DNA from: Ginglymostoma cirratum
Lineage: Eukaryota
Reading direction: 5' to 3'
Assembly (NCBI GenBank): GCA_024137785.1
Contig: JAHRHZ010000251.1
Coordinates: 4,071,395-4,135,394 of the forward strand
DNA length: 64,000 nucleotides
Shown here: positions 39,962 through 56,830 of the stretch, piece after piece
Position numbering within the stretch: the stretch's first letter is position 1
Layout of the letters: each line of letters starts with the position of its first letter
Notes under the pieces: model-generated
Databases searched by the model: none
The model's input: the letters and a program-made list of their open reading frames with translations, nothing else
Told to the model about the DNA's origin: nothing
Made by a program: the position numbers and the translations under genes

Positions 39962-40159
39962 AGAGATAACAAGGTGTGGAGCTGGATGAACATAGCAGGC
40001 GAAGCAGCATCAGAGGAGCAGGAAAGCTGACATTTCAGGCCTAGACCAGGCCCGAAACATCAGCTTTCCTGCTCTGATGCTGTTTGGCTTGCTGTGTTCA
40101 TCCAGCTCTACATCTTGTTATCTCCGATTCTCCAGCATCTGCAGTTCCTTCTATCTCTG
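39962..40159. mobile_element. Penelope-like fold-back hairpin insertion
   Basis: Inverted arms of about 75 bp; perfect 15-bp duplication AAGGCATCAGAAATA (39947-39961, 40160-40174). Confidence 0.85.
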
Positions 40160-40411
40160 AAGGCATCAGAAATATATTTTGAACAATCTGATGGTGTACT
40201 CTTTTATAATTGACCTTGTTCAGTAGTGTACGATTTACTAAGGGGATTCTTGATGCCAAGGTTCAAGTCTGTCATAGCATGTCTGAACAGTTTGATTTAA
40301 AAAATATTGTAATGTTTCTTCAAGACTGTGGTAATTGCTGTCATGAGCCACAATCTGAGGGATTGCCCTCATCACATAGAATGCAAACATGAACTTGGGT
40401 GTGGGACTCAT

Positions 40412-41113
40412 TATTGATTTATTGTCACGTGTACCAAAGTACACTGAAAAGCTTTGTTTACAAGCAGTACAGTCAGATCATAGTAAGCAAGGATGTAAAA
40501 ACCAAAAGGTTACATTGCACAGGGTGTGCACTAGGCGAGATCAGTGTTACCAAGATGAGCATTATTTGACGCTAGAGAGTCCATCCAGCTGGGAAGAAGC
40601 TGTTCCTGAACCTGCTCATGCAAGTGTTCAGGCTCCTGAAGAGGTTGCAGGTCATTTCCGGTGTGCAATGGGTCTTTGATGTTGGCAACCTTCCTGCAGC
40701 AGCGAGCCATGTAAATGGAGTCCATGAATGGAAGATTAGCTTCCATGATGGTCAGGGCTGTGCACACCACCATCTGTAGTTTCTTACAGTCCTGGGCAGA
40801 GCAGTTGCCATATCAGGCCATTACACCATTGAAAGCATACTATCTGGGTGTGTATCTGTAGACATGCCAAATTTCCTGAGGAAGAAGCAGCATTGTTGTG
40901 CCTTTTTGAATGTCACATCTCCGTGTGAAGTCCAGGATATGTTGGTTATCTTCACTCTGAGGAACTTGACACTCTCCACCCTCAGTTCCATTGACGTTAA
41001 TGGAGGCAGTGTTCTGTTCCTCTTTCTGAAATCAATGATCAGTTCTTTAGTTTTGCTGACATTGAGAGAGAGGCTGTTATCATCGCACCATGTCACCAAG
41101 CCCTCTATCTCCC
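40412..41113 (-). mobile_element. Rex1/Babar-like LINE 3' fragment
   Basis: WCDDNSLSLNVSKTKELIIDFRK...VESVKFL...KKAQQ; tail TTTATTGTCACGTGTACC...AGTACACTGAAAAG. Confidence 0.88.
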
Positions 41114-42726
41114 CAAATTAGTTGTGGTAACTGAGAGAGTTCCTTAAAATATCTTCGGAAAGATCTATGGGAAGTAAGCACGTTTTGCATAATTCTTTTC
41201 TGGTGGTCATAGATAACAGTAACATGAATGTTAAGGGAGTGGATACTGTGATTCAGTTGATTACAACCTGCCCTAGTTGCTTGGCCATCAATATCTGCTG
41301 AGAATCTGATTAATGGCCATTTATCAACTATATGTACATAGACATAGCTTGGGAATTTGAAACGTGGCCCTAGCAGCACCCTGAAATATGTCACTGGCAG
41401 AGAAATTTGGGGCTGTAGTTATTTTGAGGGCATCTGACATGGGTTCCTTCAAATAATGGGGCTGCAGATGTGCGTACAAGTTTGTAACTACCTTCAAAGA
41501 AAGCTGTAGCCATTATCTCTTAGACATCCAGTGAAGTTGGTACTTTGAATATAATGCTCGTGCTCTTCAGTGATGAGGCCTGCCCTACTTTGGCACTTTC
41601 TGAAATCCCCACATGACCTTATGGTCTAGGTTGTTGTGAAACTAAGGCACTCGTCTGAATCCTTTTCAACAGGTTCCCAAAAGATTTGTTTTGGAGCAAA
41701 AGAAGAGGTGAGGGTATATGAAAATCTTGAGAATTATAATTAATGAAATATGAATGAAACTTTCTACTGGTTCTGCTCATCAGTACTGTAAGTTAAATCA
41801 TTAGAAACCCAAACAGATTATAGAGTAACATTGTGTTTTCATACCTAGATGACTCTCTGCTCAATTTAAAAAAAGTAAAAGGTAGTTGATCTCAGCATTA
41901 CTGACTGCAGGCAAGATCAAGAAATATCTCTTGGAGCATACTCTGGGCCACGTGAATCTCATTCATCTGTTTTCTTAACAGTTCCCCATAAAAGACCCAA
42001 CATCAATCATTATACAATCTAAATTTTAATCTCTTGAATATTGTTTTACACCACATTCTTAAAACATTCAATTTTATGCAAACCTTAAAGCTGAATCACA
42101 TAATTAAAAAGGTATTCAAGTCCACAAAATAATTGACATTGGGCTCCTTTTGATATGAAGACAAAACTAAAATGTGGACCATAGCTTAAATATTAAGCAA
42201 CTAAGCAAAACCAGTGGAGAGCAAATACAGTACTACATGTAAAAAAAATCCCTGACAAATGGTTCAATTTCTAAAACTGAATTCATAATTAAAATCCAAC
42301 TCTCAGGATTTATATAAAAAATAAAAAAAGGACTACAGTACTTGTAAGAAATGTCTGGGTTCATTTAACTGTGGACTCATCCAGTGACCACGTTTTAAAC
42401 CGGGCACATCACATGAAAAGAATTTCTAAGAAAGAACTCGCCATTTCAAGTGGGTCATATATACTTATGTCAGAAAAATCTCAACATGCATTAAGAACTG
42501 CAAAATCTTTTTTTAAAAATATCTTCCATTTTCCATGTGAGAAAGCAATGTACAATAGGTACAAGTGTCATGTTTATTTCAGTTATGACTACTCAGTCAG
42601 AATTTTTTTTCCTCTCCAGCAACCCTCCCCACAAACTCTGGACAAGATGACATATTGGGTGTCTGAACGTTGCAGCCCAACAAATGGCAGTGTAGTGGAC
42701 ATCTTAAGAAACAGCAGCCAGAACCT

Positions 42727-42740
42727 TTAGTGTCGACGGG
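42727..42740 (-). CDS. PWWP2A: PWWP2A distal terminal exon, coding part of the short isoform (A-R-R-H-stop)
   Basis: Strong acceptor CTCTGTTTGTTTTCCCTTTTTAG| then CC CGT CGA CAC TAA, in frame with the phase 1 donor at 50023; followed by AT-rich UTR-like sequence with a minus-strand AATAAA at 42573-42578. Confidence 0.72.
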
Positions 42741-44005
42741 CTAAAAAGGGAAAACAAACAGAGTCAAACAATACATATATAATTCCATTAAATCACAACA
42801 GTAATATTACATGTCAAAATGATAACTACTGGTCAAATCTATTCAAGACACTGCATTTAAGTACAGATCAATTATTGTGATTTTGTTTGAAATGGATGTC
42901 ACCTCTTGGTAATGTGTGCATACTAGTGAAATGGGATTTGAGACCTTCTTTTCTAGACCATAACCTATTGTTGATTTTCTTGATGATATGACTTTAATTG
43001 GGAAGAGGTAGACATCATCCTTAAATAGAGGAATAGTTGGCAAAGAATTCAATAACGTCTACACCAGAGCACAGAAAAAACTCAATTACAATTCTTCAGA
43101 TTTGAGTGGGAAAACGTGGACAAATGTATCTTCCCAAGTTATTCAACCATAACAAGAAGGTTGATAGCACTTTACGTAATTGTATATAGCTGTCAAATTG
43201 AGTTACAAATCACATCTGCAAGTTGAAAATGAAGTATAAATATCATAAACTGCTAACCAAGTGAGAAGTTGCCCCTCAAAAAGTAATTTTTTTCTCTCTT
43301 TCTCCAAACACCACCCCCACTCCCCAAAATACAGGATCTAATGGACAAAAGAAAACAACCATTGAACAAGAAGTGCTAAGTACTAGGTGGTATTTCAGAA
43401 ATAGAAATCAAGTGCCATGCCTGGTAAGTATTCTAAATTACATCATGGAATGATATTAATTAAAACAATTCTCCACAAATGGAGGATATAATGTTGACAA
43501 AAAGAAAGATTGGTTTAAAAAAAACCTGACCATCTGTTCCCTAGTATAGAGAATACTAACTTGGCAAGAATGACTGTCCAATTTTCAGTTGAGCATGTAT
43601 ACAAATGACATAATCCTCTCGATGTGTTTTCGTGTAATTCCATTACAAGTTTCAGGAAAAAAAGTCAGTGATTTGCCAGACATGCAACATCACTAATACA
43701 GGCAACTGAAGGTGATGACTTATTCCGATATCGTTAATCATGGGTGTGCTATTTGTTTGAGTACCTTCCATTTATCTCAGTCTCTCAATTCCAATGTGCA
43801 TACCTATCCATGGACGGTATAGGTCAAACTTGAAAGTTCATGGTTATATAGGGCTGGCTGAATGATGTGAATGAATGTGTTGAATGAACGTAGTGTGACA
43901 TTCAAAATTTGTTCTGTTTTTTTAAAAACTTATGTCTTGTTAAATAATGTTAAATCATGCATTACAGTAGCTGAGACAAAGTAATTTGCTAAATAAATAA
44001 GATGA

Positions 44006-44256
44006 TCATAGAATCCCTAGTGTGGAAACAAGTCCACACCAACCCTCGAGCATCCCACCCAGACCCATCTGCCTAATCTACACTATCCTGAACACTATGG
44101 GTAATTTAGCATGGCCAATCTACCTAGCCTACATATCTATGGGAGAAAATCTGAGCACTCGGAGGAAACCCACACACAGTCGCCCAACGCTGGAATTGAA
44201 CCTGGGTCCCTGGTGCTGTGTGACAGCAGTGCTAACCACTGAGCCATCATGCCGCC
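44006..44256 (-). mobile_element. HE1-type SINE (internally deleted)
   Basis: TCATAGAATCCCTA tail and GCTAACCACTGAGCCATCATGCCGCCC head. Confidence 0.85.
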
Positions 44257-44675
44257 CACAGCAGAAACAAGAAACCAGAGGTAGACTAAATAACAGTATT
44301 TCAGATTGAGTTCAGGTGTCGAATATTTTAAGTTTTGCCAACTGATAATTTTATTTTATATTCAAATAAAAATTCATTTTAAAGTTACTACAGTATCAAA
44401 GGACCATAGGGCTGCCCCGTTACAGAAGCACAACTAGTCGTGAGTTTAACCTGATGGTCACCGTTCAGAGGGCAGGAACTGCCTGTAAACGTCATACTCG
44501 TTCCTGCATTACCATTGTGTTACGTGAAGTCTCCACTGTAAAGATTATCAGCATCCGCAGTTCTTTTTGGTTTTTAAAAGATTCAGTGTCCAGATTGTGT
44601 GTTGGCCTACTTCTTACCCCAGCATTATTTGAACATTCCCTCTATTTCAAACAGTTTGCCTTATTTATACGTTTA

Positions 44676-45132
44676 CAGGATGGTATCCTTTATCTGCATG
44701 TCTGAAAACCATGATACAGAGGTGCCAGTGTTCAACTGGCATGGGAAGGGGAGAAATCACATAATACCAGGTTATAGTCCAAAGGTTTTCAAGTAAACCT
44801 GTTGGACTATAACATGGTGTTGTGTGATTTCTAACCTTGTCTGAAAACCAAAAACTGAAGGTCTTTTTGAAAGCAGGCCTGAACAGACTTGTAGACATGC
44901 TGAGTTCAGAGTTCTGGAAAAAGCTTCACTTCTAGGTTTTTTTTTGTCTAAAAAGGCCTGAACTCAGCATATCGGGCTCTTCAGGGCTGAAAATACCTTC
45001 ACTTCTAGGACTGTTCAGATTAAGTGAAGTCATCCCCCAACATCCCAAAGGGCCCATGCTGATCTATAGAAGGGGCAATTATATCCAAAAACCAGTGGTC
45101 CTGAGGTTTTCAGACAAAGGATTCCTGACTTG
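44676..45132. mobile_element. Tigger/pogo-like MITE with a nested hairpin insertion
   Basis: TA|CAGGATGGTATCCTTTATCTG ... CAGACAAAGGATTCCTGACTTG|TA; internal inverted pair ATGCTGAGTTCAG / CTGAACTCAGCAT. Confidence 0.55.
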
Positions 45133-46884
45133 TAAAATATTTCATTATTATTGTGCAGGCCTTTATAATGTGGAACTCTATAGGCCTACAAACATTGCTT
45201 TGTAACACTGATTTGATAGCTTCTGTAATTTTCATTTTTAAAAAGTATGATGTGCTAAGATATGCAGGTTTATTTCTCTCACCTAGACTAGAACTTCAAC
45301 AGATTTAGAATTATTTTTCATACACTACAAATGCAATATATTCAAAGCAGAAAGGTAGATACATTATCAATCAATCAGTAAAAGTAACTCATAACATTCC
45401 CTTCAACAGCAATGCATTGTCTTGCCAAAGCAAACTGATTTTTTTAAACTTTCTGAATGATGGTGTTGCAGCACTCTGATCATTTCCATTTTAATTCAGC
45501 ACAGTATATTTATGAAAAGTTAGCAAAACAAACAGCACTAAGGATTATCTTACTGCAGCCATTTTCTTTTCCAGACTAGTAAAGGGGCATGTCAGAGAAT
45601 TAAAGCCAAATTCCTTCACTCTTCATAGTGAGCATTTTTAAATGTAACCACTGACGTAGCGCATCACATTTTTCGTTTGTTAGTATTACAACCTACAAAC
45701 AAACTTTAAGAAAATTAAGTAGTACTTCACCTCAATGTTGGCATTAGTCTACATGTTCTCTCCTTTCTGTAACCTGGCCCAATATCCAGGCTGCATGTGG
45801 AACTGTGGCATATAGAATAGGCTCACTATCAGCTCAACCACCATCTAACTCAGAGGGGAAAAAAGCTTAGAAGTAGGCAGATTAAAGAACTTAACCCCTA
45901 ACCAGTTGAAATTTAGTTTAGAATTCAAAAATCTTAAAATGCACAATAACATAACTGTTTATGTGGTAATGTTGACACTTTGAAAGTAATAATTTGAACA
46001 GAAATATTCAGAAAGATGGTTATTGCTCTGCACATTTGAGATTTATAAAGTTTAATCATTGAATTGGCAATATTTTACAGACAAAACATTGAGAAAAATG
46101 TTACTCTACATTGTAACTGAGAGGCTGGTCCAGTACTGTACACACTTCCAAGCTGAGTTTGCATGTTTAAAGCATAACAAAATAAAATGCAACATAAAAT
46201 CAAGCAACGAGGGGACTGGATGGCACAATTCTAGTCTTCAACTCCACTCAGCAATCTTGATCTGCTGACCAAGTGTCCTGCATGAAAGGATTTTGCTTGA
46301 CTCAATCCAGCAACTATGAACTTAGCTGAATTTTTGTCAGAAGCCCCTGGATGGCATGCAAAATTGTCATCTCACTCCCAGTTTCAAAAAAGTCACCATT
46401 AATACTGTGACACACTCCAGTACGGGAGGGTTTTATTTACATTTCCTTTTTTAAAAACACTTAGCTAATTCTGGTTTTCCGTGAAGGAAGGGAACCTACT
46501 ATCTTATATAGGTCAACACATGAATGATGCTGCAGGACTGCTAAAAATTTGCAAATAAATGGCCTTTCTAAAGTTGGCTGTGACCTGATCAATGGGCTTC
46601 TGAATACTGAAGAGCTTAATTTGCTATTAGTAACATTGACTACTTGTGTCTTATGTTCACAGATAGCAGCAGGAATTCACTCTATTCTTTTCACAACAAT
46701 GGATTTGGATTACTGTTGCAATGACGATATTTCCATTGTTGTTATCTGCGATGCTGTAAAGTTACCACTGTCATAAAGATTCTGCATTCTTTCCATTCAG
46801 CACTTCTCTCTTTGTTAGTGTCCAGAGGTTTTGCTACTTGAACCGTTATTTGGAACTGAAGATAGCTTTCATTAATGTAGTGTC

Positions 46885-47000
46885 TTTTAAGACTACAGAA
46901 CATCACAATGCCCTTTTACAACCAATAATCAGGTACTTTCGAAGTGCAGTCAATGATAAAGGCAAACATGGCAATTAATTGAGTAGCAATGTTCCAGAGT
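46885..47000 (-). mobile_element. DeuSINE (SacSINE1/AmnSINE-like) 3' remnant
   Basis: Reverse complement resembles the recalled AATTGGCTGCC...GACTACACTTCAAAAGTAC...TTGGCTGTAAAG segment; strongly diverged. Confidence 0.45.
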
Positions 47001-49324
47001 TATTACAGAATTTGAATTTTGCACTCATTAGGACGAATGTCAAATTTCAAATTATTAACTTGTGAACAGGAGTAAAAGGGTGCCAGAAATTATTAGCTCC
47101 CCATGCTCTTGGTAGTACAATAGAAGGTTTAAGACTTGTACATACTGCTTTGTTTTACAGAAAACTGCCTGTATGTAGTTTCTAGCAAGCGTACATGTGT
47201 TATTAACTACCACGAAGATGAGTTGAGCTATCCCTTTCCTCAACGTGCTTGTTGCTAAACCTGCGATGTTTTCTCTTACTGTCTACTAGACAGTAACCTA
47301 CCTTTACCAATCACTATGCATGCTGGGAATCAGCAGCTTCATATGCTAAAACTTTGAGCTTTAGACGAAATTTTGTAAATGATGCCCTAGCCATTTGCTC
47401 AATTTGTAAACCATTGCACAGCATTCTATGGGGGTAGCAACTATTATGAACAGATCACTATTATCAGAAACTTGAAAATGGATCTGAAAGAAGCCAGGTT
47501 TCTGTCATTACTGTGAAAAGATATTGCAGAAATTTGAACTTCAGGTTAAATGGTGTTCCTGCTATTATCAAGCTGTAAGGCAGGTGGTATTTTCCACTAA
47601 CTGGATGCCAGTTACACAATTCAGCAATGTATTAATTTCAGTGCCAGTGACATGTTAGGTGCATAAGGCAATTCATCCCAATAATCTGTTCGAATCTAAC
47701 GGATCTTCCTTCCAAAAACAAAAAAGGCAAGCCCAAGCTAACAAAATCCAAAACAATGGGTTAGTGATTCTGCAATTGGGTAGCATGTGCTGAACAGTGT
47801 GCTAACAGCTACATTATCAATTAGAGATATTTAGGATTGTAGCACTACCAAGAAGCAAGGTAGACCAGCTTTCTACAAATAAAATTGCCATGTTCAAACC
47901 TTACATCTTTTAGTAACTACCCAGGAGCTTGGAAAGCTTATGTAGATCTATGCTTTCTCAATGGTAATAACTCAGCCAATCAGCAACCTTTTCTCCTGTT
48001 GTGTAAGTCGTTGTGAATATTGGTAATGTCAAATAATGCATTTTTCCTGTTGAGTGCAAGACAAAAAGCATGGGCAACATTTTCCTTTCCCTTCCAGCAA
48101 AAGATAAACTTAAATAGGAAGATGGACTAAAAACACTTAGCAGGTCAGGTACGTCATATGTAATGTTTCAGGTTAATTACCTTTCAGCCATAGATATTTT
48201 TAATCAACCTGTTCAGAGATATTATGATAACTCTGGAGCAGGTGGGACTTGAAGGCAGGTCTTCTGGCCCAAAGTAGGGACACACCCACAGTGCCACAAG
48301 GGCCCTTTTCATCCATCCTAGCCCAACCCACAGATGCTACCTGATGTGCTAAGCATTACAAGCATCAGTGATAATTTGGATTTATAGGAGGTTCATGTCT
48401 TGATTTGATGGCTTAGTTTTGTAACAATCATTGCAGTTTTAAAAAGTTCTAATCCTTTAAATCCATCAATTGGATAAATGAATTCAAACTTTCATTGCAG
48501 TAACATTTTCAACAGCACATCCAAAATAGATGGTCTACAGTTGGTGTCAGCTAACCCACATTTTGACAATAGTTCATTTCAAACTACCCAGCTTGAATCA
48601 CTGATTTAGACATCAGTTTTAAAGATTTTTTTTTAAAAGCATAACCAGGTAAATCATGGTAAAGCATCCATACATTATCAATGAACCAATAAACTTGCTT
48701 CAGTTTTAACATGACCATACTCCAAATAACAGCACTTGAGAGTTGCCCAAAGTATATCTGCACCAATCAATCAATTCCATGGCTCATTTTGATCCTTAGC
48801 ACTAGAAAGAATTTCAAAAAGAAGCTTTTTAGAACTGATAAAGTAACAACTACAAGGGCTGTCTCGATGTGTTGACTGTTTTGGAGCCAATTTTTAAATG
48901 CTTTTCCCTGTTGGGTCTAGAATACAAAAATTTCATCTTAAGCATTCTATTCAAAAGGACAGGAACTCCATAATAAAACAGCCAGCACACAGTCCTTCCA
49001 GGTTTCAGCTCCTACATGTCCAACTTGTGAAATGCTTAAGGCAACTGGGCCTAAAGAAATTAGGGTCTTTCTTGGATTTAAGATTGGTTTATTTGTCCAC
49101 CAAATTCCTGCCTTTAATGCTGAAAATTGATAAAGTAAGTAGATTTATACCCCCTTAGTGTTATAATAGCCAGTAGCCATCCTCATTTTAAAACTAACTT
49201 TGAACTGCATTCATTATACCATTGAGCCTAATTTGATGTTTTACAGTTTGTTACACATATTTAAATTTGGGCATCATTTTAGTGGAACCCCAGCCACTTG
49301 ACTTGCCTACCTTCTTTGATGTTT

Positions 49325-50984
49325 TCATGTTTCAAACTGTGTCAGCAGGGCCCGCACCTCAGGTGTCAGCTGCTTTGCAGCCTTGGCTGCCTCTGTGATG
49401 GCCTTGCGGTAAAGGCCCTTTCTCTTCTTGTTAAACCGTGACTGGAAGTTTTCTAAAAACGGGGAGACTTGTGAAAGAGCCAGGAAAGATGTTGTTGGGG
49501 ACCCAAACCATGAAATTCTGGCCTCCTGTCTTACTAAAAAGCCATTATCTTTCCGGCTCACAGTTATAGTAAGTATGCGGGCAGGCCACCAGGGGAAGCC
49601 GTAAATCTTGGCCCAAACAATGTCCCCTACACATATGGTCTTGCCATCTGGAGTCACACATTTAGAGACATTTTTGGTAAAGACTTTCACTTTCAAGGAA
49701 TTAGTGAGCTTGTCTTCTTTTGAGGAGGAGCAAGGTACATGCATGCTGCCTGGAGGAAAGTCAAATGTTTCAGTAGAACTACATTCTGAGTTGGAGGATT
49801 TTATATCATCTGCGCTATCACTACTACAAACTGAAAAGGCAGAAGAGTCGGATTTATTTTGACTGTAGGTCATATAAACAGTTATATTGCCTCCTCTGCC
49901 CCTTTTCCCCAATTGCTTTTCATCTTGCTCACAAGGCCATTTTATTTCCCTGGTGTCTTTATTCTCATCAGTGGACTGTTCCAACCCTTTTGTGGGACTA
50001 TCTTTTTCAGAAGGCTGCTCACCTGCTGAGCGGGAAGAGGTACAGCGAGGCGGCGCTTTGGACGCTGTCTTACAGCTGCGTAGTCTATCAAGTTTAGCTT
50101 TGTAAACAGAGTCATTTTCTTCATTTCTGTACCTTTGTGGCTTTAAGCGAATCCGTGGAGGGAGAGAGCCGGAGTTGGTTGTTTGAAAGCGCCGTGTAAA
50201 ATGAACTTTTGGAATGGTACCACCAGAAGATGAAACTTCCTGCTGTTTCTTTTGAACTTTCTCTTTGGCCATTTTTAGTACTTCCCTGGCTTTTGAGTGA
50301 TCTACATTCTTGTTCTGTAGAACTTTTTTGGGATTCAACTGCACTTTAGAACTATGTACTTGAGAAGAAATCTTGACTACTTTGCCCTTGCCTGTAGTTA
50401 GATTTGAAATTTTAATGACTGTATTTCTCTTCTGACCATCATACTGCGTTTTTGCTTCCAGTTTGTGATCTGTTTTCAGTCTCTTAGACATAGCAGGCGC
50501 ACTGTCATTTTTTCGTTTCTTGTCCTCATTTCGAGAAGTGTCATTTGTGCTGCCACCCCTTCTCAACTCTCTTTTATCTGCAGAAATACTGTTTTTGCAT
50601 CGATCACATAGAACTTGTCTTGGTCGGAGTTTAATAGAATTCATTATGGAAGTAGACTCCTCTCTGAACATTTTCTTTTTAGGTCGTTTAATCCTTCTCG
50701 GAGGAGGTTGAGGTATGGACTGGTTATACGTGTGTCTAATAAACAGTGGAGGAGGGTAAGGTGCTCCTTCATAAAATAACGGTGCAGGTTTGGCAGTCCA
50801 CAGGCTTTCAACCACACTAGGGTGTGCAGAGGGTACCAAAGACGCTGCTTCACAAGTACCTGCAGATTTTGAACTTTGTTGGATCTGTTGCTGGAATGGT
50901 TCACACTGAAGTTGCACTAAGTCAGTTTTATCCTTGTAGTCCCTTTTTGGAAGCACAGTCACAGGAATTCCATAGGGCCCAAAC
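49325..50984 (-). CDS. PWWP2A: PWWP2A exon 2 (main coding exon with C-terminal PWWP domain)
   Basis: Acceptor TTCTCAG|G TTT GGG; FGPYGIPVTVLPKRDYKDK, GAPYPPPLFIRHTYNQSIPQPPPR, VGDIVWAKIYGFPWWPARIL, ending ALLTQFET* (TGA at 49325-49327). Confidence 0.97.
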
Positions 50985-53794
50985 CTGAGAAGGTATAGCA
51001 CAAATGGATTCAGTCCTACAATCAGGTTTTCACATTTTGCTCCAACTTTACTACCACAATTAAAGGCATTCATCTCCAAGCAACACATACTTTTTGTATT
51101 CTTCAATTATTCAGATATCTTTCAGCTCAATGAGAAAGTTAAAAATACCACTTTGCAGACTGTAGTGCAACACAAGTGACATTGAACTTTTAACATGCCA
51201 CACAAAAGAGTCTAGAGCTACACTTTTTAAGAAAAGGCAGAAGGGACCAGCTTTGATACATAACTGAAATGGACTTGCTCCTCTTCTGCCAGGCAAATAT
51301 AGGATTATAAACGTGCAAAAATATTCAGTTACATCTCGTTATAAACCGATACAGTTCAAGAATATGGCTTTCAAAAGGAAAACTTTATTTAATCAAAACC
51401 TAAAAGATGTCTAGCAGAATGAAGTTCAATTCCATTGACAGTGACGTCCAGAAAAGGGATTTGTGCAGATTTGTTGAACATTACAGTAAATGACCTTTCT
51501 GCTTGCTTACCTGGTAAGTTATCTTTTTTATTTAACAAAGTGTGATTTGGCAGAATTGCAGTGTCAAGTTTTCAATAATTTACAATGCTTTATAAAATTT
51601 CTGAACTAGCAATTAAAGTCCAAAATGGAGATGCTGCAATAAACAGTAAAGTGCTGGGAGAATGTTAATCAATAATTATCTCATCCAATGATTTTTAAAT
51701 ACGATCTCCCTAATTCAATTTTATTTGTACATTAATTATAACTTGCAATTGGAGGTTAGTTCAGAACACCAAGGAACCAACTGGCCTCAGTACACATTCT
51801 TATAAATGGTGCTTTGTTCAAAAATAACTACCTGCTAAATTGTTTATTCACAGTCTGATGTCAAGCATAAGGAATTCTGGACTCTCCATCATAAAAAATC
51901 AAACAATTAATAAAAGATGAAAGTGTCCACTGTAGTGGCAGAGTTGAGAAAAGACTTTTTCTTTTCTTGAATCCTTACCCCCTCTTGCCCATCAAAATGT
52001 CATACTTAGCCTCACATCACCTCTCCCAGGTAAAAACTAAAAAAACTCAACTCCTGATTTTCATATCTTGGTAATGATAAGTTAAAGGTATATACCGGCC
52101 TATGATCAGAGAATGGGATTAATTTAAACTACATTAGATTGTTCCAACTTGAGGCTATAGTACCAGAATTTTAATGCTAGATAGCTCATCACTGGCCAGT
52201 GTGATCAAACCCAAATTTCTTAGAATATTTCTGATAGTTCTTCAGCACAGTTCTGGAATAAATGCTAACATTTTGTGTTAATAGTTCAAAGTCAAGTAAC
52301 AATGATTCTTTTCATACTGTACATTATATGAATTATTCTGTATGCTGACGAACAGAAGAAATCAAGGACAACTCATTCCTACTCTAGTTTAGCCTTTTAA
52401 TTCATTTATGATTTTTCTGGACTAATCACAAACAGTACTTTCACTTCATCTTTCTTTCACACTTCCATTATTTTAAAAAAGTTGCAATTTCAACAGTGAG
52501 AAACTGTATACAATTGCAATTAAACAGGCTTCCTAAGTCCCAAATCAGATTAATGGAACTTAAAGCTACTTTGGTTGTGGACTAGCAATAGGGGATTATT
52601 CTGCAAATAGGGGTGGGGGAAAAAGTGAATGTTTGCTAGTCCACTGAATCAAAGCAGTTAGTAGATGATTCTGCAAATGATACAATAGTTGTCATTGATC
52701 TAAAAATATGCTAAATGTTGTCAAATATATACTTGCCCTACAATCTTCGTATTTTACTCACTTTTTCAGAAGCAAATAAGCCAAAAAAACCCATCAATTC
52801 TCATTACATCCATTTCTAGAATAGATAAAAATTTCACCTTTGATGTTCTTCCAAAAATCACCTGCTTCAACCTTTCACTTTTCTAGCAAAAAGAATGGCA
52901 GTGACCACAGCAAAATGGAAGCCAGCTTTAGACCATGGCTTTCATCCTAATGCTGGTGAAACACCAGCTATAAATGGGTATGTTATATCAGCAGAGTAGA
53001 AGTCTCTAATACGAAGCATTCAAAAAACAGCTGAGTACTACAACATGGGGTATGAAACATTGCCTAATGTTGGAAAGATCAATTCTTCATTACAGAAGAT
53101 GCAGTAATGAAATAAAACATTAATGATGAAACAGATGTTAGCTACACCTGTTCAAATGATACCCAAACATTTTAGGAAAAAAACCTATTGGAAAAAGGCC
53201 TATAATTTGGTTCAACTTCCCTCAAGGATTTTATTCCAATTGCTTGCTTCCATAATCACTATCATGAAGGTCAATAATGTGACAGTAGACAGTACTGCTT
53301 TAGGATGGACTGGCCCAGATTTGTTAACAAACAGGATGTTTCTACATAATGAAATTTTGTATAGTACACAAATGCAAATTAGGCTTGACTGGACAAATGC
53401 TTAAAAAGCTTACCTGTAGCCATTTGCATTTCTCAATGTTATATTTATATATAGGTTACTGTAGCACTAGTCACTGCAGTCTGGCTCTCAGAATTGCTTG
53501 TTGGTTCAGCTCCCAAAATACCATTCCTGGCAATGATAGGGGTGAAATGGCCAGTAAAACCAATTCTAAACTGTGACAAAAATAAGTTTTAAATAGAATT
53601 CATATAAAGTTTCAGTAACTGGAGCAAATAGCTACTTTAAAGAATCCTCCTTTCAACATTTATTTTAAATTGTTAAAAATTAAAAATGTACTTGAGAGGG
53701 AAGTTGGTTCTTTATTTTACAGCAGCTGAGACTGACTAGAAAAGCTGAAGACAATGGATTATGCTAAATAAATCAGCAGTTTTTCTTAAATTCA

Positions 53795-55068: not shown

Positions 55069-55949
55069 CCATCATTCAACCTTTTATTGTAATACCCAGA
55101 AAATATCCCAAAGTAGTGACATTACACCCAAAAATTTACCATCCCACATAAAAATACAAGTTATACTGTAAGAAATGTACCAGGGAACCTAAATTGTTTT
55201 GTTCTCTGGTAATAGGCTGGTTTCAACAGTGCATGGGAGGTTTAAGCTGCCCCACGTACCAGAAGACTTTCCCCAACTCTTGATCCAAGAACAGCACATA
55301 TTACTAAGTTGGGGGCATTTTGGGCTCTCACCAGTTTGAGACAGTGGTGGTGGAGGGAAAAGACACACAGGAAGGTTGACTTCGAAAGCAAATCTGGAGG
55401 CCAGAAAAAACCTTGAGACACATGAGATCTTGACCTGAATGAGTAATAAGGGACTCGACCTGTATTTTTGTTACAGAAGAGTGGAGTCAGAGTTTGTGTT
55501 CGGAGACATACGTTGTCAAGTATAACCAAAAAGATGTATTTATTAGCCTGGCTAACTTCTAATGTGAATGAGACTGCATCACACTGTTTCAATGTATACA
55601 CACAAACCTTGCCTAATGTCGAGGTGCAACACTTTGTTCCTACCACTCAAACGTTACCAGCTACTCAAAATTCATTTTAGAGTGATTTAATGGGAATTTA
55701 AAAATCATTGCAGAAACGAGCTACAACTTCAACTCATTCCCTAAAATCTGCAGGTCGAACTTGTCTCATTTGCAAAACCACGTTATTAACCTTTCGAGAG
55801 ATGCAGATAACCCCTGAATTGAAGAAGTAAATCCAAACAAAATTTTTAAAAAGGCATCTGGGAAGGAAGTTCACACTCTCTTTCTCTGCGTTTCTATTTT
55901 TTTTTGGAAAAAAAGTTGGGGGGGTGGAAACTGATGATGCATTGAATTT

Positions 55950-56830
55950 GGGCGGGGTGGGTGACTATGCTGCGGGAGTTGCTGGAGCCTGGGCTGGGCA
56001 GGGCAGGGCTGTGCCCCCACAAACCCCCCTCTCTCCCTCTGCACGTCCTCTGGCAACGCAGCAACCACAAGCGCTCCAGATGCAGCAGAGCGCGGAGATA
56101 AGGTGCAGACCGCTGTCGCCTGCTGCCCTAGGCCCATAGGTGGCTACTTCTCCTACTCACGCTTCACCTGCCCCACCATCCACTCTCCAGGTGCAACTCC
56201 AGGCCTCACCTGCCTCTGGGGAGGCAGGTTTCTTTTCTCTCTCTTTCTACCCGTTATTTTGTGTTTTATTTTCCCGTACCTTCTGGAAATATCCATTAAA
56301 ACCCCTGAGAAAAGCTTCTCTTCGAAACGCAGGGACACTACCAATGCGTCGTCCACGACGTGATCCACCGTTACCCTAACTTCGGAACCTGCCAGGAGTT
56401 TCAAGGCGGCGGCGGCAGCGGCAGCAGCAGCAACGCCAACACCCGCAGCCGCCATTTTGCTTCCTGTCTGTTCTTGAGCGCCGTTTCTCCTCTGCACCCA
56501 CTCCACAGCTCCCCGGCCTGGCTCCGGGGCGGGCCTTGCAGTATCGCCCGCCTCTCTGCCAACCGCCTATTGGCACAAATCAACAGTCATCTTCTTTTGA
56601 TTCGTGTCGTCGAACTATCCATCAACTGTCGTTGGTGCGGCCTATTGTCCTGTAGCTGCGACGAATTGTCGGATTTGCTGTCAATCTATTGAGGTTCGGG
56701 CACGAGGTGCTGCACGATTGGTCCTGAAATAGCTGCTGCGTTGTCATGAGAACCTGCGTCGCTCAAATCCGTTCTGGGATTTGTGAATGGTGAGACAAGC
56801 TGTCAATCAATCATCTTAGCCCCGAGGCTT
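55950..56830 (-). promoter_or_regulatory. PWWP2A CpG island and promoter
   Basis: The only extended CpG-rich tract in the window; GC box GGGGCGGG at 56526-56533, ATTGG near 56569 and 56717, CTGTCAATCA at 56800-56809, YY1-like GCCGCCATTTT across the ATG. Confidence 0.85.
56280..56455 (-). CDS. PWWP2A: PWWP2A exon 1 coding part (MAAAGVGVA9LKLLAGSEVRVTVDHVVDDALVVSLRFEEKLFSGVLMDISR-R)
   Basis: Strong Kozak context AAAATGG; GSEVRVT..H...DALVVS.RF.EKLFSGVLMD matches recalled PWWP2A; donor AG|GTACGG (phase 2) fits the exon 2 acceptor. Confidence 0.93.

What the first reader, a model, noticed from the sequence alone, without database searches (positions are those of the whole stretch)
42727..50023. 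PWWP-less short PWWP2A isoform encoded by an intra-exonic donor and a distal 4-codon exon
Seen: exon 2 contains a consensus donor CAG|GTGAGC (exon end 50023, at ...SRSA-G). About 7.3 kb downstream a strong acceptor opens CC CGT CGA CAC TAA, giving ...SRSAARRH* (about 383 aa versus about 611 aa) and removing the PWWP domain. Known (recalled, to be verified): human PWWP2A has short isoforms that diverge at TRSAG and end in a similar AQRH. PWWP2A links H2A.Z/H3K36me3 chromatin to an MTA-HDAC NuRD subcomplex. Inference: the splice switch that uncouples NuRD binding from the PWWP reader has been kept since the shark-human split, which suggests function.
Basis: partly seen in the sequence, partly recalled or inferred. 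Interest (0 to 1): 0.7.

Follow-up and report, generated by a model that had tools for sequence, protein, structure and literature searches.

The report
Ancient reader-less short form of PWWP2A
This shark's PWWP2A chromatin gene holds a splice site inside its main exon that would join it to a distant, expressed last exon and give a short protein lacking its histone-mark reader; that short form is already known in mammals and annotated in two other cartilaginous fishes, and bony fishes likely reach the same result from a different splice site.

Summary
The sequence features are as described. The donor ends at 50023, the acceptor opens at 42740, and the join would give 383 aa ending SRSAARRH against 611 aa with PWWP. 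The gene is PWWP2A. Human isoform c ends TRSAAQRH; sawshark and chimaera models end SRSAARRH. The short form is already studied in mouse cells (PMC6143588).

Three additions:
1. RNA shows the distal exon is a ~720-nt last exon. It also takes the long form, from a donor 14 nt behind the long stop (3 reads).
2. Ray-finned fishes never end in AxRH (0 of 131). 24 of 43 PWWP-less models break 110 nt earlier, with a tail matching this exon in another frame. The truncation looks kept, not the peptide.
3. The human acceptor-to-donor length is 965 nt, that of circPWWP2A.

The 50023-to-42740 joint itself was not tested in RNA. 17 of 20 cartilaginous species show only long models. Verdict: real, a known kind of isoform, moderate evolutionary interest.

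The parts
56280..56455 (-). Exon 1, coding part (176 nt, phase 2)
   Evidence: residues 22-57 of a Chiloscyllium model match at 100%
50023..50984 (-). Exon 2 from acceptor to internal donor, 962 nt; common to both forms; candidate circle
   Evidence: human equivalent 965 nt
50127..50135 (-). Weaker donor-like site AAG|GTACAG (exon end 50133, KPQR|Y, phase 2), at the place where ray-finned fish short models break; use in shark untested
50017..50025 (-). Internal 5' splice donor CAG|GTGAGC (exon end 50023, RSA|G, phase 1)
   Evidence: homologous models break here; not tested in RNA here
49376..49627 (-). PWWP domain, long form only
   Evidence: Pfam PF00855, residues 453-536 of the exon-2 translation
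49325..49327 (-). Stop codon of the 611-aa long form
49305..49313 (-). Post-stop donor AAG|GTAGGC (exon end 49311, 14 nt behind the stop), spliced to 42740
   Evidence: 3 reads from 3 starts in X21; contig depth 12.2 in X1
49088..49093 (-). AATAAA in the read-through 3' region of the long form; use not shown
   Evidence: a contig runs on past it to 48711
45725..45733 (-). Third donor GAG|GTGAAG (exon end 45731), spliced to 42740; its upstream acceptor is unknown
   Evidence: 2 reads in X21; contig depth 7.1 in X1
42741..42763 (-). Polypyrimidine tract and AG of the shared acceptor
   Evidence: both RNA joints end here
42727..42740 (-). First 14 nt of the last exon: ARRH* in phase 1; start of SPSTLK in phase 2
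42024..42740 (-). Shared last exon, about 720 nt, with AATAAA at 42578 and ATTAAA at 42030
   Evidence: X1 contig 42024-42742 at depth 30.9; X21 depth 4.6-11.3 inside against 0.9 and 2.5 in the flanking bins; signals; skate tail maps to 42726-42670

Best explanation
Exon 2 of this shark PWWP2A gene carries competing splice donors for one shared last exon: the donor behind the stop codon is used in RNA and keeps the full 611-aa protein, while the internal donor at 50023 likely gives a 383-aa protein predicted to bind the MTA1-HDAC core but not the H3K36me3 mark. Shown here: the sites, the reading frames, expression of the last exon, and the 49311 and 45731 joints. Inferred from homologous models: use of the 50023 donor. 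Inferred from mouse and human work: the short protein keeps the MTA1/HDAC-binding region and the linker-DNA part and some of the H2A.Z part, and loses the serine-rich stretch and PWWP. It would occupy one or both PWWP2 places of the deacetylase complex without delivering it to gene bodies, so donor choice would set how much deacetylase reaches gene bodies. Its stop lies in the last exon and the long form's joint is only 14 nt behind its stop, so both mRNAs would escape nonsense-mediated decay (50-nt rule, recalled). Selection likely keeps the cut before the PWWP domain and not the four-residue tail, because ray-finned fish models reach the same exon from another donor in another frame.
For: Identical SRSA|ARRH tails in Pristiophorus japonicus X5 and Callorhinchus milii X2; TRSA|AQRH in human isoform c and mouse X4. 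85 of 287 non-ray-finned entries fetched end in A[QR]RH (entries, not species). 42740 is the best of 513 AGs both for the human tail in phase 1 (22 vs 13) and for 14 eight-residue fish tails in phase 2 (16.0 vs 10.9). 24 of 43 PWWP-less ray-finned models carry that fish tail, including zebrafish X6 and paddlefish. The G and E codons over the donor are G 39/39 and E 39/39 in cartilaginous and 97/98 in lobe-finned long entries. The one change at the preceding residue (A to P, 2 entries) is compatible with keeping CAG. Human residues 148-373, necessary and sufficient for MTA1/HDAC1 binding (PMC6143588), map to shark 12-236 with 141 of 225 identical. The mammalian short isoform binds MTA1/HDAC1 and loses gene-body binding; the complex holds two PWWP2 copies. 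Mammalian PWWP2B short models break at yet another donor, at GDIVW|G (2 models).
Against: The 50023-to-42740 joint was not tested; the laid stretch held no donor side and 262 loose-end rows were not shown. In run X1 the three seen inputs (12.2 + 7.1 + 15.6 unspliced) already exceed the exon's depth of 30.9, so no fourth input is needed; contig depths are flat means and this is weak. Only 2 of 20 cartilaginous species named show an ARRH model and 1 more uses the donor; the two Chiloscyllium species, closest to this window (98% for one), show only long models among those listed, with 5 of 20 members of that cluster unseen. The residues flanking the donor are about as conserved within each clade, so protein columns do not isolate a splice constraint. 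Most homologous models are computational. 49 of 305 entries carry other tails after the donor motif, most of them scattered short tails, which fits a leaky site. The mammalian short-form data come from tagged, transfected constructs; no isoform-specific phenotype was found in the 8 paper searches.
Confidence: 0.55

Rival explanations
1. Tolerated by-product. The last exon exists for the long form's 3' UTR. A conserved protein motif (RCTSxRSAGE) keeps a donor-like sequence, and any donor in exon 2 that reaches the last exon gives a decay-proof but unimportant truncated mRNA.
For: RNA joints into 42740 come from behind the long stop. The shark PWWP2B paralogue has a perfect donor 17 nt behind its stop but no GT at the mammalian PWWP2B internal site, so the post-stop donor looks older than any short form. 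Many one-off tails exist. Three different donors serve three lineages. RCTSTRS persists in catfish, sturgeon and bichir long forms.
Against: The same donor-acceptor pair and tail appear in chimaera, sawshark, reptiles, birds and mammals. The fish donor is shared from paddlefish to percomorphs. Human isoform c carries an NP_ accession.
Confidence: 0.22
2. The donor is kept mainly to back-splice to the exon 2 acceptor and make circPWWP2A; the short linear mRNA is a side product.
For: Human acceptor-to-donor length inferred from the protein is 965 nt, the stated length of hsa_circ_0074837 (PMC11376294). The published divergent primers map to human residues 491 and 213, inside that stretch (PMC6874441). 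The shark equivalent is 962 nt.
Against: No back-splice was tested in shark. No inverted repeat of 25 nt or more pairs the two sides of exon 2. Circle length varies from 944 to 971 nt among the entries. A circle does not need the conserved first bases of the last exon.
Confidence: 0.11
3. The donor is intact but barely used in this shark lineage; here the distal exon is only 3' UTR of the long form.
For: Only long models are listed for Chiloscyllium plagiosum (6 isoforms seen) and C. punctatum. The seen RNA inputs can account for the exon's depth in X1.
Against: The donor is the strongest in the exon and the ARRH* frame is identical to that of sawshark and chimaera. X21 depth in the last exon (4.6-11.3) exceeds that at the end of the long coding region (2.6), which leaves room for it, though 3' bias or filtering could explain that.
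Confidence: 0.12

Closest known systems
Mammalian PWWP2A short isoform (human isoform c, NP_001253964.1, 520 aa; PWWP2A-SI of Zhang et al. 2018, PMC6143588)
   Same: Same donor position (RSA|G), same four-residue tail type (AQRH vs ARRH), loss of the serine-rich stretch and PWWP, MTA1-binding region retained.
   Different: The shark protein lacks most of the first 147 human residues (11 aligned). No homologue of the amniote 40-residue cassette exon was found in the shark intron. Which short isoform Zhang et al. cloned was not stated in the passages seen.
RefSeq models of Pristiophorus japonicus (X5, 382 aa) and Callorhinchus milii (XP_007903753.1, X2, 398 aa)
   Same: Identical SRSAARRH end.
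   Different: Predicted models; their RNA support was not seen here. The sawshark model has another first exon.
Ray-finned fish short PWWP2A models (zebrafish XP_073792090.1 X6, paddlefish, salmonids, percomorphs)
   Same: PWWP-less; tail (S-A/T-A-T-L-K) matches the shark last exon read in phase 2, SPSTLK.
   Different: Break lies at KPQR|Y, 110 nt upstream in shark coordinates, in another frame. Homology of the exon is inferred from peptides; no fish DNA was seen.
circPWWP2A (hsa_circ_0074837, mmu_circ_0000254)
   Same: Length 965 nt equals human exon 2 acceptor to this donor; primers map inside.
   Different: A back-spliced RNA; untested in shark. The papers seen do not give its genomic ends.
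Mammalian PWWP2B short isoforms
   Same: PWWP-less forms of the paralogue (PMC6143588; sloth and loris models).
   Different: They break at GDIVW|G, a non-homologous donor that the shark PWWP2B lacks.

Membership tests
PWWP2A orthologue | C-terminal PWWP domain | tested here: met
   PF00855, E 3.2e-12
PWWP2A orthologue | Groups with PWWP2A, not PWWP2B | tested here: met
   Tree of 17 rows: window with nine PWWP2A rows, 100/99; own paralogue with PWWP2B, 95/97
PWWP2A orthologue | Conserved gene neighbourhood | tested here: inconclusive
   No neighbouring gene identified in the window
PWWP2A short isoform (isoform c type) | Phase-1 donor at RSA|G and last exon opening A-x-R-H-stop | tested here: met
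PWWP2A short isoform (isoform c type) | Donor-to-last-exon joint present in mRNA | not tested
   The laid stretch ended at 49500; acceptor use shown only from 49311 and 45731
PWWP2A short isoform (isoform c type) | Retains the MTA1/HDAC-binding region (human 148-373) | tested here: met
   Maps to shark 12-236, 141 of 225 identical; sequence only
PWWP2A short isoform (isoform c type) | Binds MTA1-HDAC and loses gene-body binding | not testable with these tools
   Shown for the mammalian form only (PMC6143588)
Alternative 5' splice site into a shared last exon | Two or more donors join one acceptor | tested here: met
   49311 and 45731 both join 42740 in two runs
   Long-form joint 49311-42740
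Decay-coupled (poison) splicing | Stop more than about 50 nt before a later exon joint | tested here: not met
   Short-form stop lies in the last exon; long-form joint is 14 nt behind its stop. The rule itself is recalled.
circPWWP2A | Acceptor-to-donor length equals the circle | tested here: met
   Human 965 nt = 965 nt
circPWWP2A | Back-splice joint in shark RNA | not tested
m6A-controlled alternative 5' splice site | Splicing shifts on METTL3 loss | tested here: inconclusive
   In mouse ES cells one Pwwp2a cluster is unchanged (p 0.87), the other untestable; cluster coordinates not seen (PMC8327914 supplement)

The most novel reading that the evidence does not exclude
Jawed vertebrates have kept a PWWP-less PWWP2 product by selection on the truncation itself, through three unrelated donors: RSA|G of PWWP2A in cartilaginous and lobe-finned lineages, KPQR|Y of PWWP2A in ray-finned fishes (same last exon, other frame), and W|G of PWWP2B in mammals. 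One donor choice in exon 2 then divides output among the full reader protein, a reader-less deacetylase-binding competitor and circPWWP2A.
Probability: 0.35. Interest if true: 0.6.

Novelty: new member of a known kind. Interest (0 to 1): 0.38.

Why it matters
PWWP2A carries the MTA1-HDAC deacetylase core to active gene bodies and helps suppress cryptic transcription starts (PMC6143588, PMC7670215). Its short form is known, but the first of these papers says its recruitment needs further study. Depth back to chimaeras, and a likely donor switch in bony fishes that keeps the cut while changing the tail, argue for a function and name silent splice-site edits that test it in mouse cells or zebrafish. 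The link to circPWWP2A matters for fibrosis studies: circle and short mRNA likely share one donor, so their levels and knock-downs may be coupled. None of this is a new kind of system.

Tried and rejected
RNA: no holder listed was on record as RNA in the run search. Of 4 runs laid, X22 gave 0 reads (no test) and X5, a relative, did not cover the last exon beyond its far end. X1 is only guessed to be RNA. Repeat-derived reads at 44027-44257 filled the loose-end table.

Amniote cassette exon (40 aa) against the shark intron: best E 0.11, rejected.

Shark last exon against 30 kb behind the PWWP2B paralogue: best E 0.006 for an A/T-rich 32-mer, no homologue found; the paralogue's last exon is unidentified.

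Rfam on 40000-49400: 0 matches. No long inverted repeats across exon 2 and no tandem repeats.

m6A control of donor choice: no support in the one data set seen; supplement file 1 was not searched and file 4 was cut.

Synonymous-site constraint could not be measured: no vertebrate DNA from other species was available. Protein columns were uninformative.

Neighbouring genes: none found. A first exon-join script used a wrong start motif and was redone.

No amphibian short model was seen; only axolotl PWWP2A long entries were fetched. Earlier findings of the scan: none on this gene. No structure or complex prediction was run.
Full report
1. Observation. The gene lies on the minus strand. Exon 1 codes from 56455 to 56280 and exon 2 starts at 50984. 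Read-through ends at 49325 and gives 611 aa, with a Pfam PWWP domain at 49627-49376. The internal donor CAG|GTGAGC ends at 50023. Joined to the acceptor at 42740 across 7282 nt it gives 383 aa ending SRSAARRH. The donor is the best of 86 GT sites and the acceptor ties for best of 79 filtered candidates.

2. Identity. The exon 2 part is 98% identical to a Chiloscyllium PWWP2A cluster representative and about 63% to amniote PWWP2A. A tree of 17 rows places it with PWWP2A (100/99) and the genome's one other match, L002, with PWWP2B. That the source is a carpet-shark relative is inferred from these identities.

3. RNA (stretch 41500-49500; 4 runs, 2 informative). The distal exon is expressed. A contig of run X1 covers 42742-42024 at depth 30.9. 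Poly(A) reads of X21 (about a quarter of the run read) give depths of 4.6-11.3 inside it against 0.9 and 2.5 beside it. It runs past the AATAAA at 42578 to about the ATTAAA at 42030. Two GT-AG joints end at 42740: from 49311 (3 reads; contig depth 12.2) and from 45731 (2 reads; depth 7.1). The 49311 donor is 14 nt behind the long stop, so the exon is the 3' UTR exon of the full-length mRNA too. The 50023 donor lay outside the stretch and its joint is untested. In X1 the seen inputs sum to 34.9 against 30.9, which needs no further input; in X21 the last exon is deeper than the end of the long coding region (2.6). Neither settles the share of the short form.

4. Relatives with the same donor. 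Sawshark X5 and chimaera X2 end SRSAARRH; human isoform c and mouse X4 end TRSAAQRH. 85 of 287 non-ray-finned entries end A[QR]RH. A skate model breaks at the same donor, and its tail maps onto the shark sequence just behind the TAA (63% over 19 residues, E 5e-4), so the last exon is conserved beyond the coding bases. Against this, 17 of the 20 cartilaginous species named show only long models, including both Chiloscyllium species; 5 of 20 members of their cluster were not listed. These are gene models, mostly computational, and entries are not independent species.

5. Ray-finned fishes. None of 131 entries assigned to them (by name or, for unnamed ones, by similarity) ends in AxRH. 24 of 43 PWWP-less models break right after KPQ with tails such as SAATLKGC (zebrafish, salmonids), STATLTSC (paddlefish) or STTLKSC (percomorphs). 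The shark last exon read in phase 2 gives SPSTLK. Among 513 AGs, 42740 scores best for these tails as well as for the human tail. The shark keeps a weaker donor-like site at the matching place, 50133. No cartilaginous or lobe-finned entry among those checked uses it. Among 79 ray-finned long entries, a residue-G-E pattern was found in 12 within 70 residues of KPQ. Inference: the same last exon is entered from an earlier donor in another frame, so the cut is conserved and the tail peptide is not. No fish DNA was available to confirm this.

6. Paralogue. Shark PWWP2B has a perfect donor 17 nt behind its stop. It lacks a GT where two mammalian PWWP2B short models break. Inference: a post-stop donor with a non-coding last exon predates the duplication, and short forms arose by internal donors more than once.

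7. Circle. Human exon 2 from acceptor to this donor is 965 nt by protein length. hsa_circ_0074837 is stated to be 965 nt (PMC11376294, passages), and its published divergent primers map inside that stretch (PMC6874441, passages). The donor therefore likely closes circPWWP2A. The shark length is 962 nt; no back-splice was tested.

8. What is known. PMC6143588 (passages and supplement legends) states that PWWP2A and PWWP2B make PWWP-less short isoforms by alternative splicing and polyadenylation. The short form co-precipitates MTA1 and HDAC1, loses gene-body binding and keeps some promoter signal; residues 148-373 suffice for binding; two copies sit in one complex. [quoted passage not shown] PMC8908386 (passages) shows competition with MBD3. 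PMC7670215 (passages) links the complex to suppression of cryptic starts. PMC11672872 (passages) lists a mouse Pwwp2a variant made by an alternative 5' donor. PMC8327914 (passages and supplements) shows no Pwwp2a splicing change on METTL3 loss. PMC5838017 (passages) concerns a pseudogene and is irrelevant. Eight searches listed no paper on the evolution of the isoform, the fish donor or the shared donor with the circle; subscription papers are not covered, and the EMBO J 2017 paper on PWWP2A was not seen.

9. Mechanism. Donors in and behind exon 2 compete for one acceptor. Both mRNAs would escape decay. The short protein would fill places in the MTA1-HDAC complex without gene-body targeting. 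I put this at 0.55, a tolerated by-product at 0.22, disuse in this shark at 0.12 and conservation for the circle at 0.11.

10. Verdict. Real and conserved; a shark member of a known mammalian isoform class that is already annotated in two cartilaginous fishes. The new elements are the shared last exon, the likely donor switch in ray-finned fishes and the likely identity with the circPWWP2A donor. Interest 0.38.

Noticed in passing
window 45725-45733 (minus): A third donor is spliced to 42740 (2 reads, one contig). Its upstream partner is unknown. After the long stop such a transcript would have a joint far behind the stop and would likely be degraded.
   Followed up: partly
window 49452-49475 (minus): An acceptor-like site inside the PWWP coding region (TTTTTAG|AAAAC). 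Six fetched models join the RSA donor to ENFQ, an in-frame internal deletion. Use in shark untested.
   Followed up: partly
window 55263-55450 and 53474-53572 (minus): Chiloscyllium, sawshark and other models use extra segments in intron 1, giving several N-termini.
   Followed up: no
L002:1903-1928: Shark PWWP2B has CAG|GTGAGT 17 nt behind its stop; its last exon was not identified within 30 kb.
   Followed up: partly
window 44027-44257, about 44750-44835, about 48200-48260: High-copy repeat fragments (SINE-like, label by recall) with very high read depth in the intron.
   Followed up: no
P0391 (mouse X2), P0373, P0375, P0483: Further donor or acceptor choices: a mouse model breaks later, at VRVPG; zebrafish, grass carp and a catfish join the KPQR donor to another exon, RSENAVKPL.
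   Followed up: no
window 44746-44838 and 40016-40074: Short hairpin-like inverted repeats of 44 and 27 nt; the first overlaps a high-copy repeat.
   Followed up: no
window 1-41500: No neighbouring gene was identified; seven of the window's longer ORFs outside the gene had no Pfam match.
   Followed up: partly
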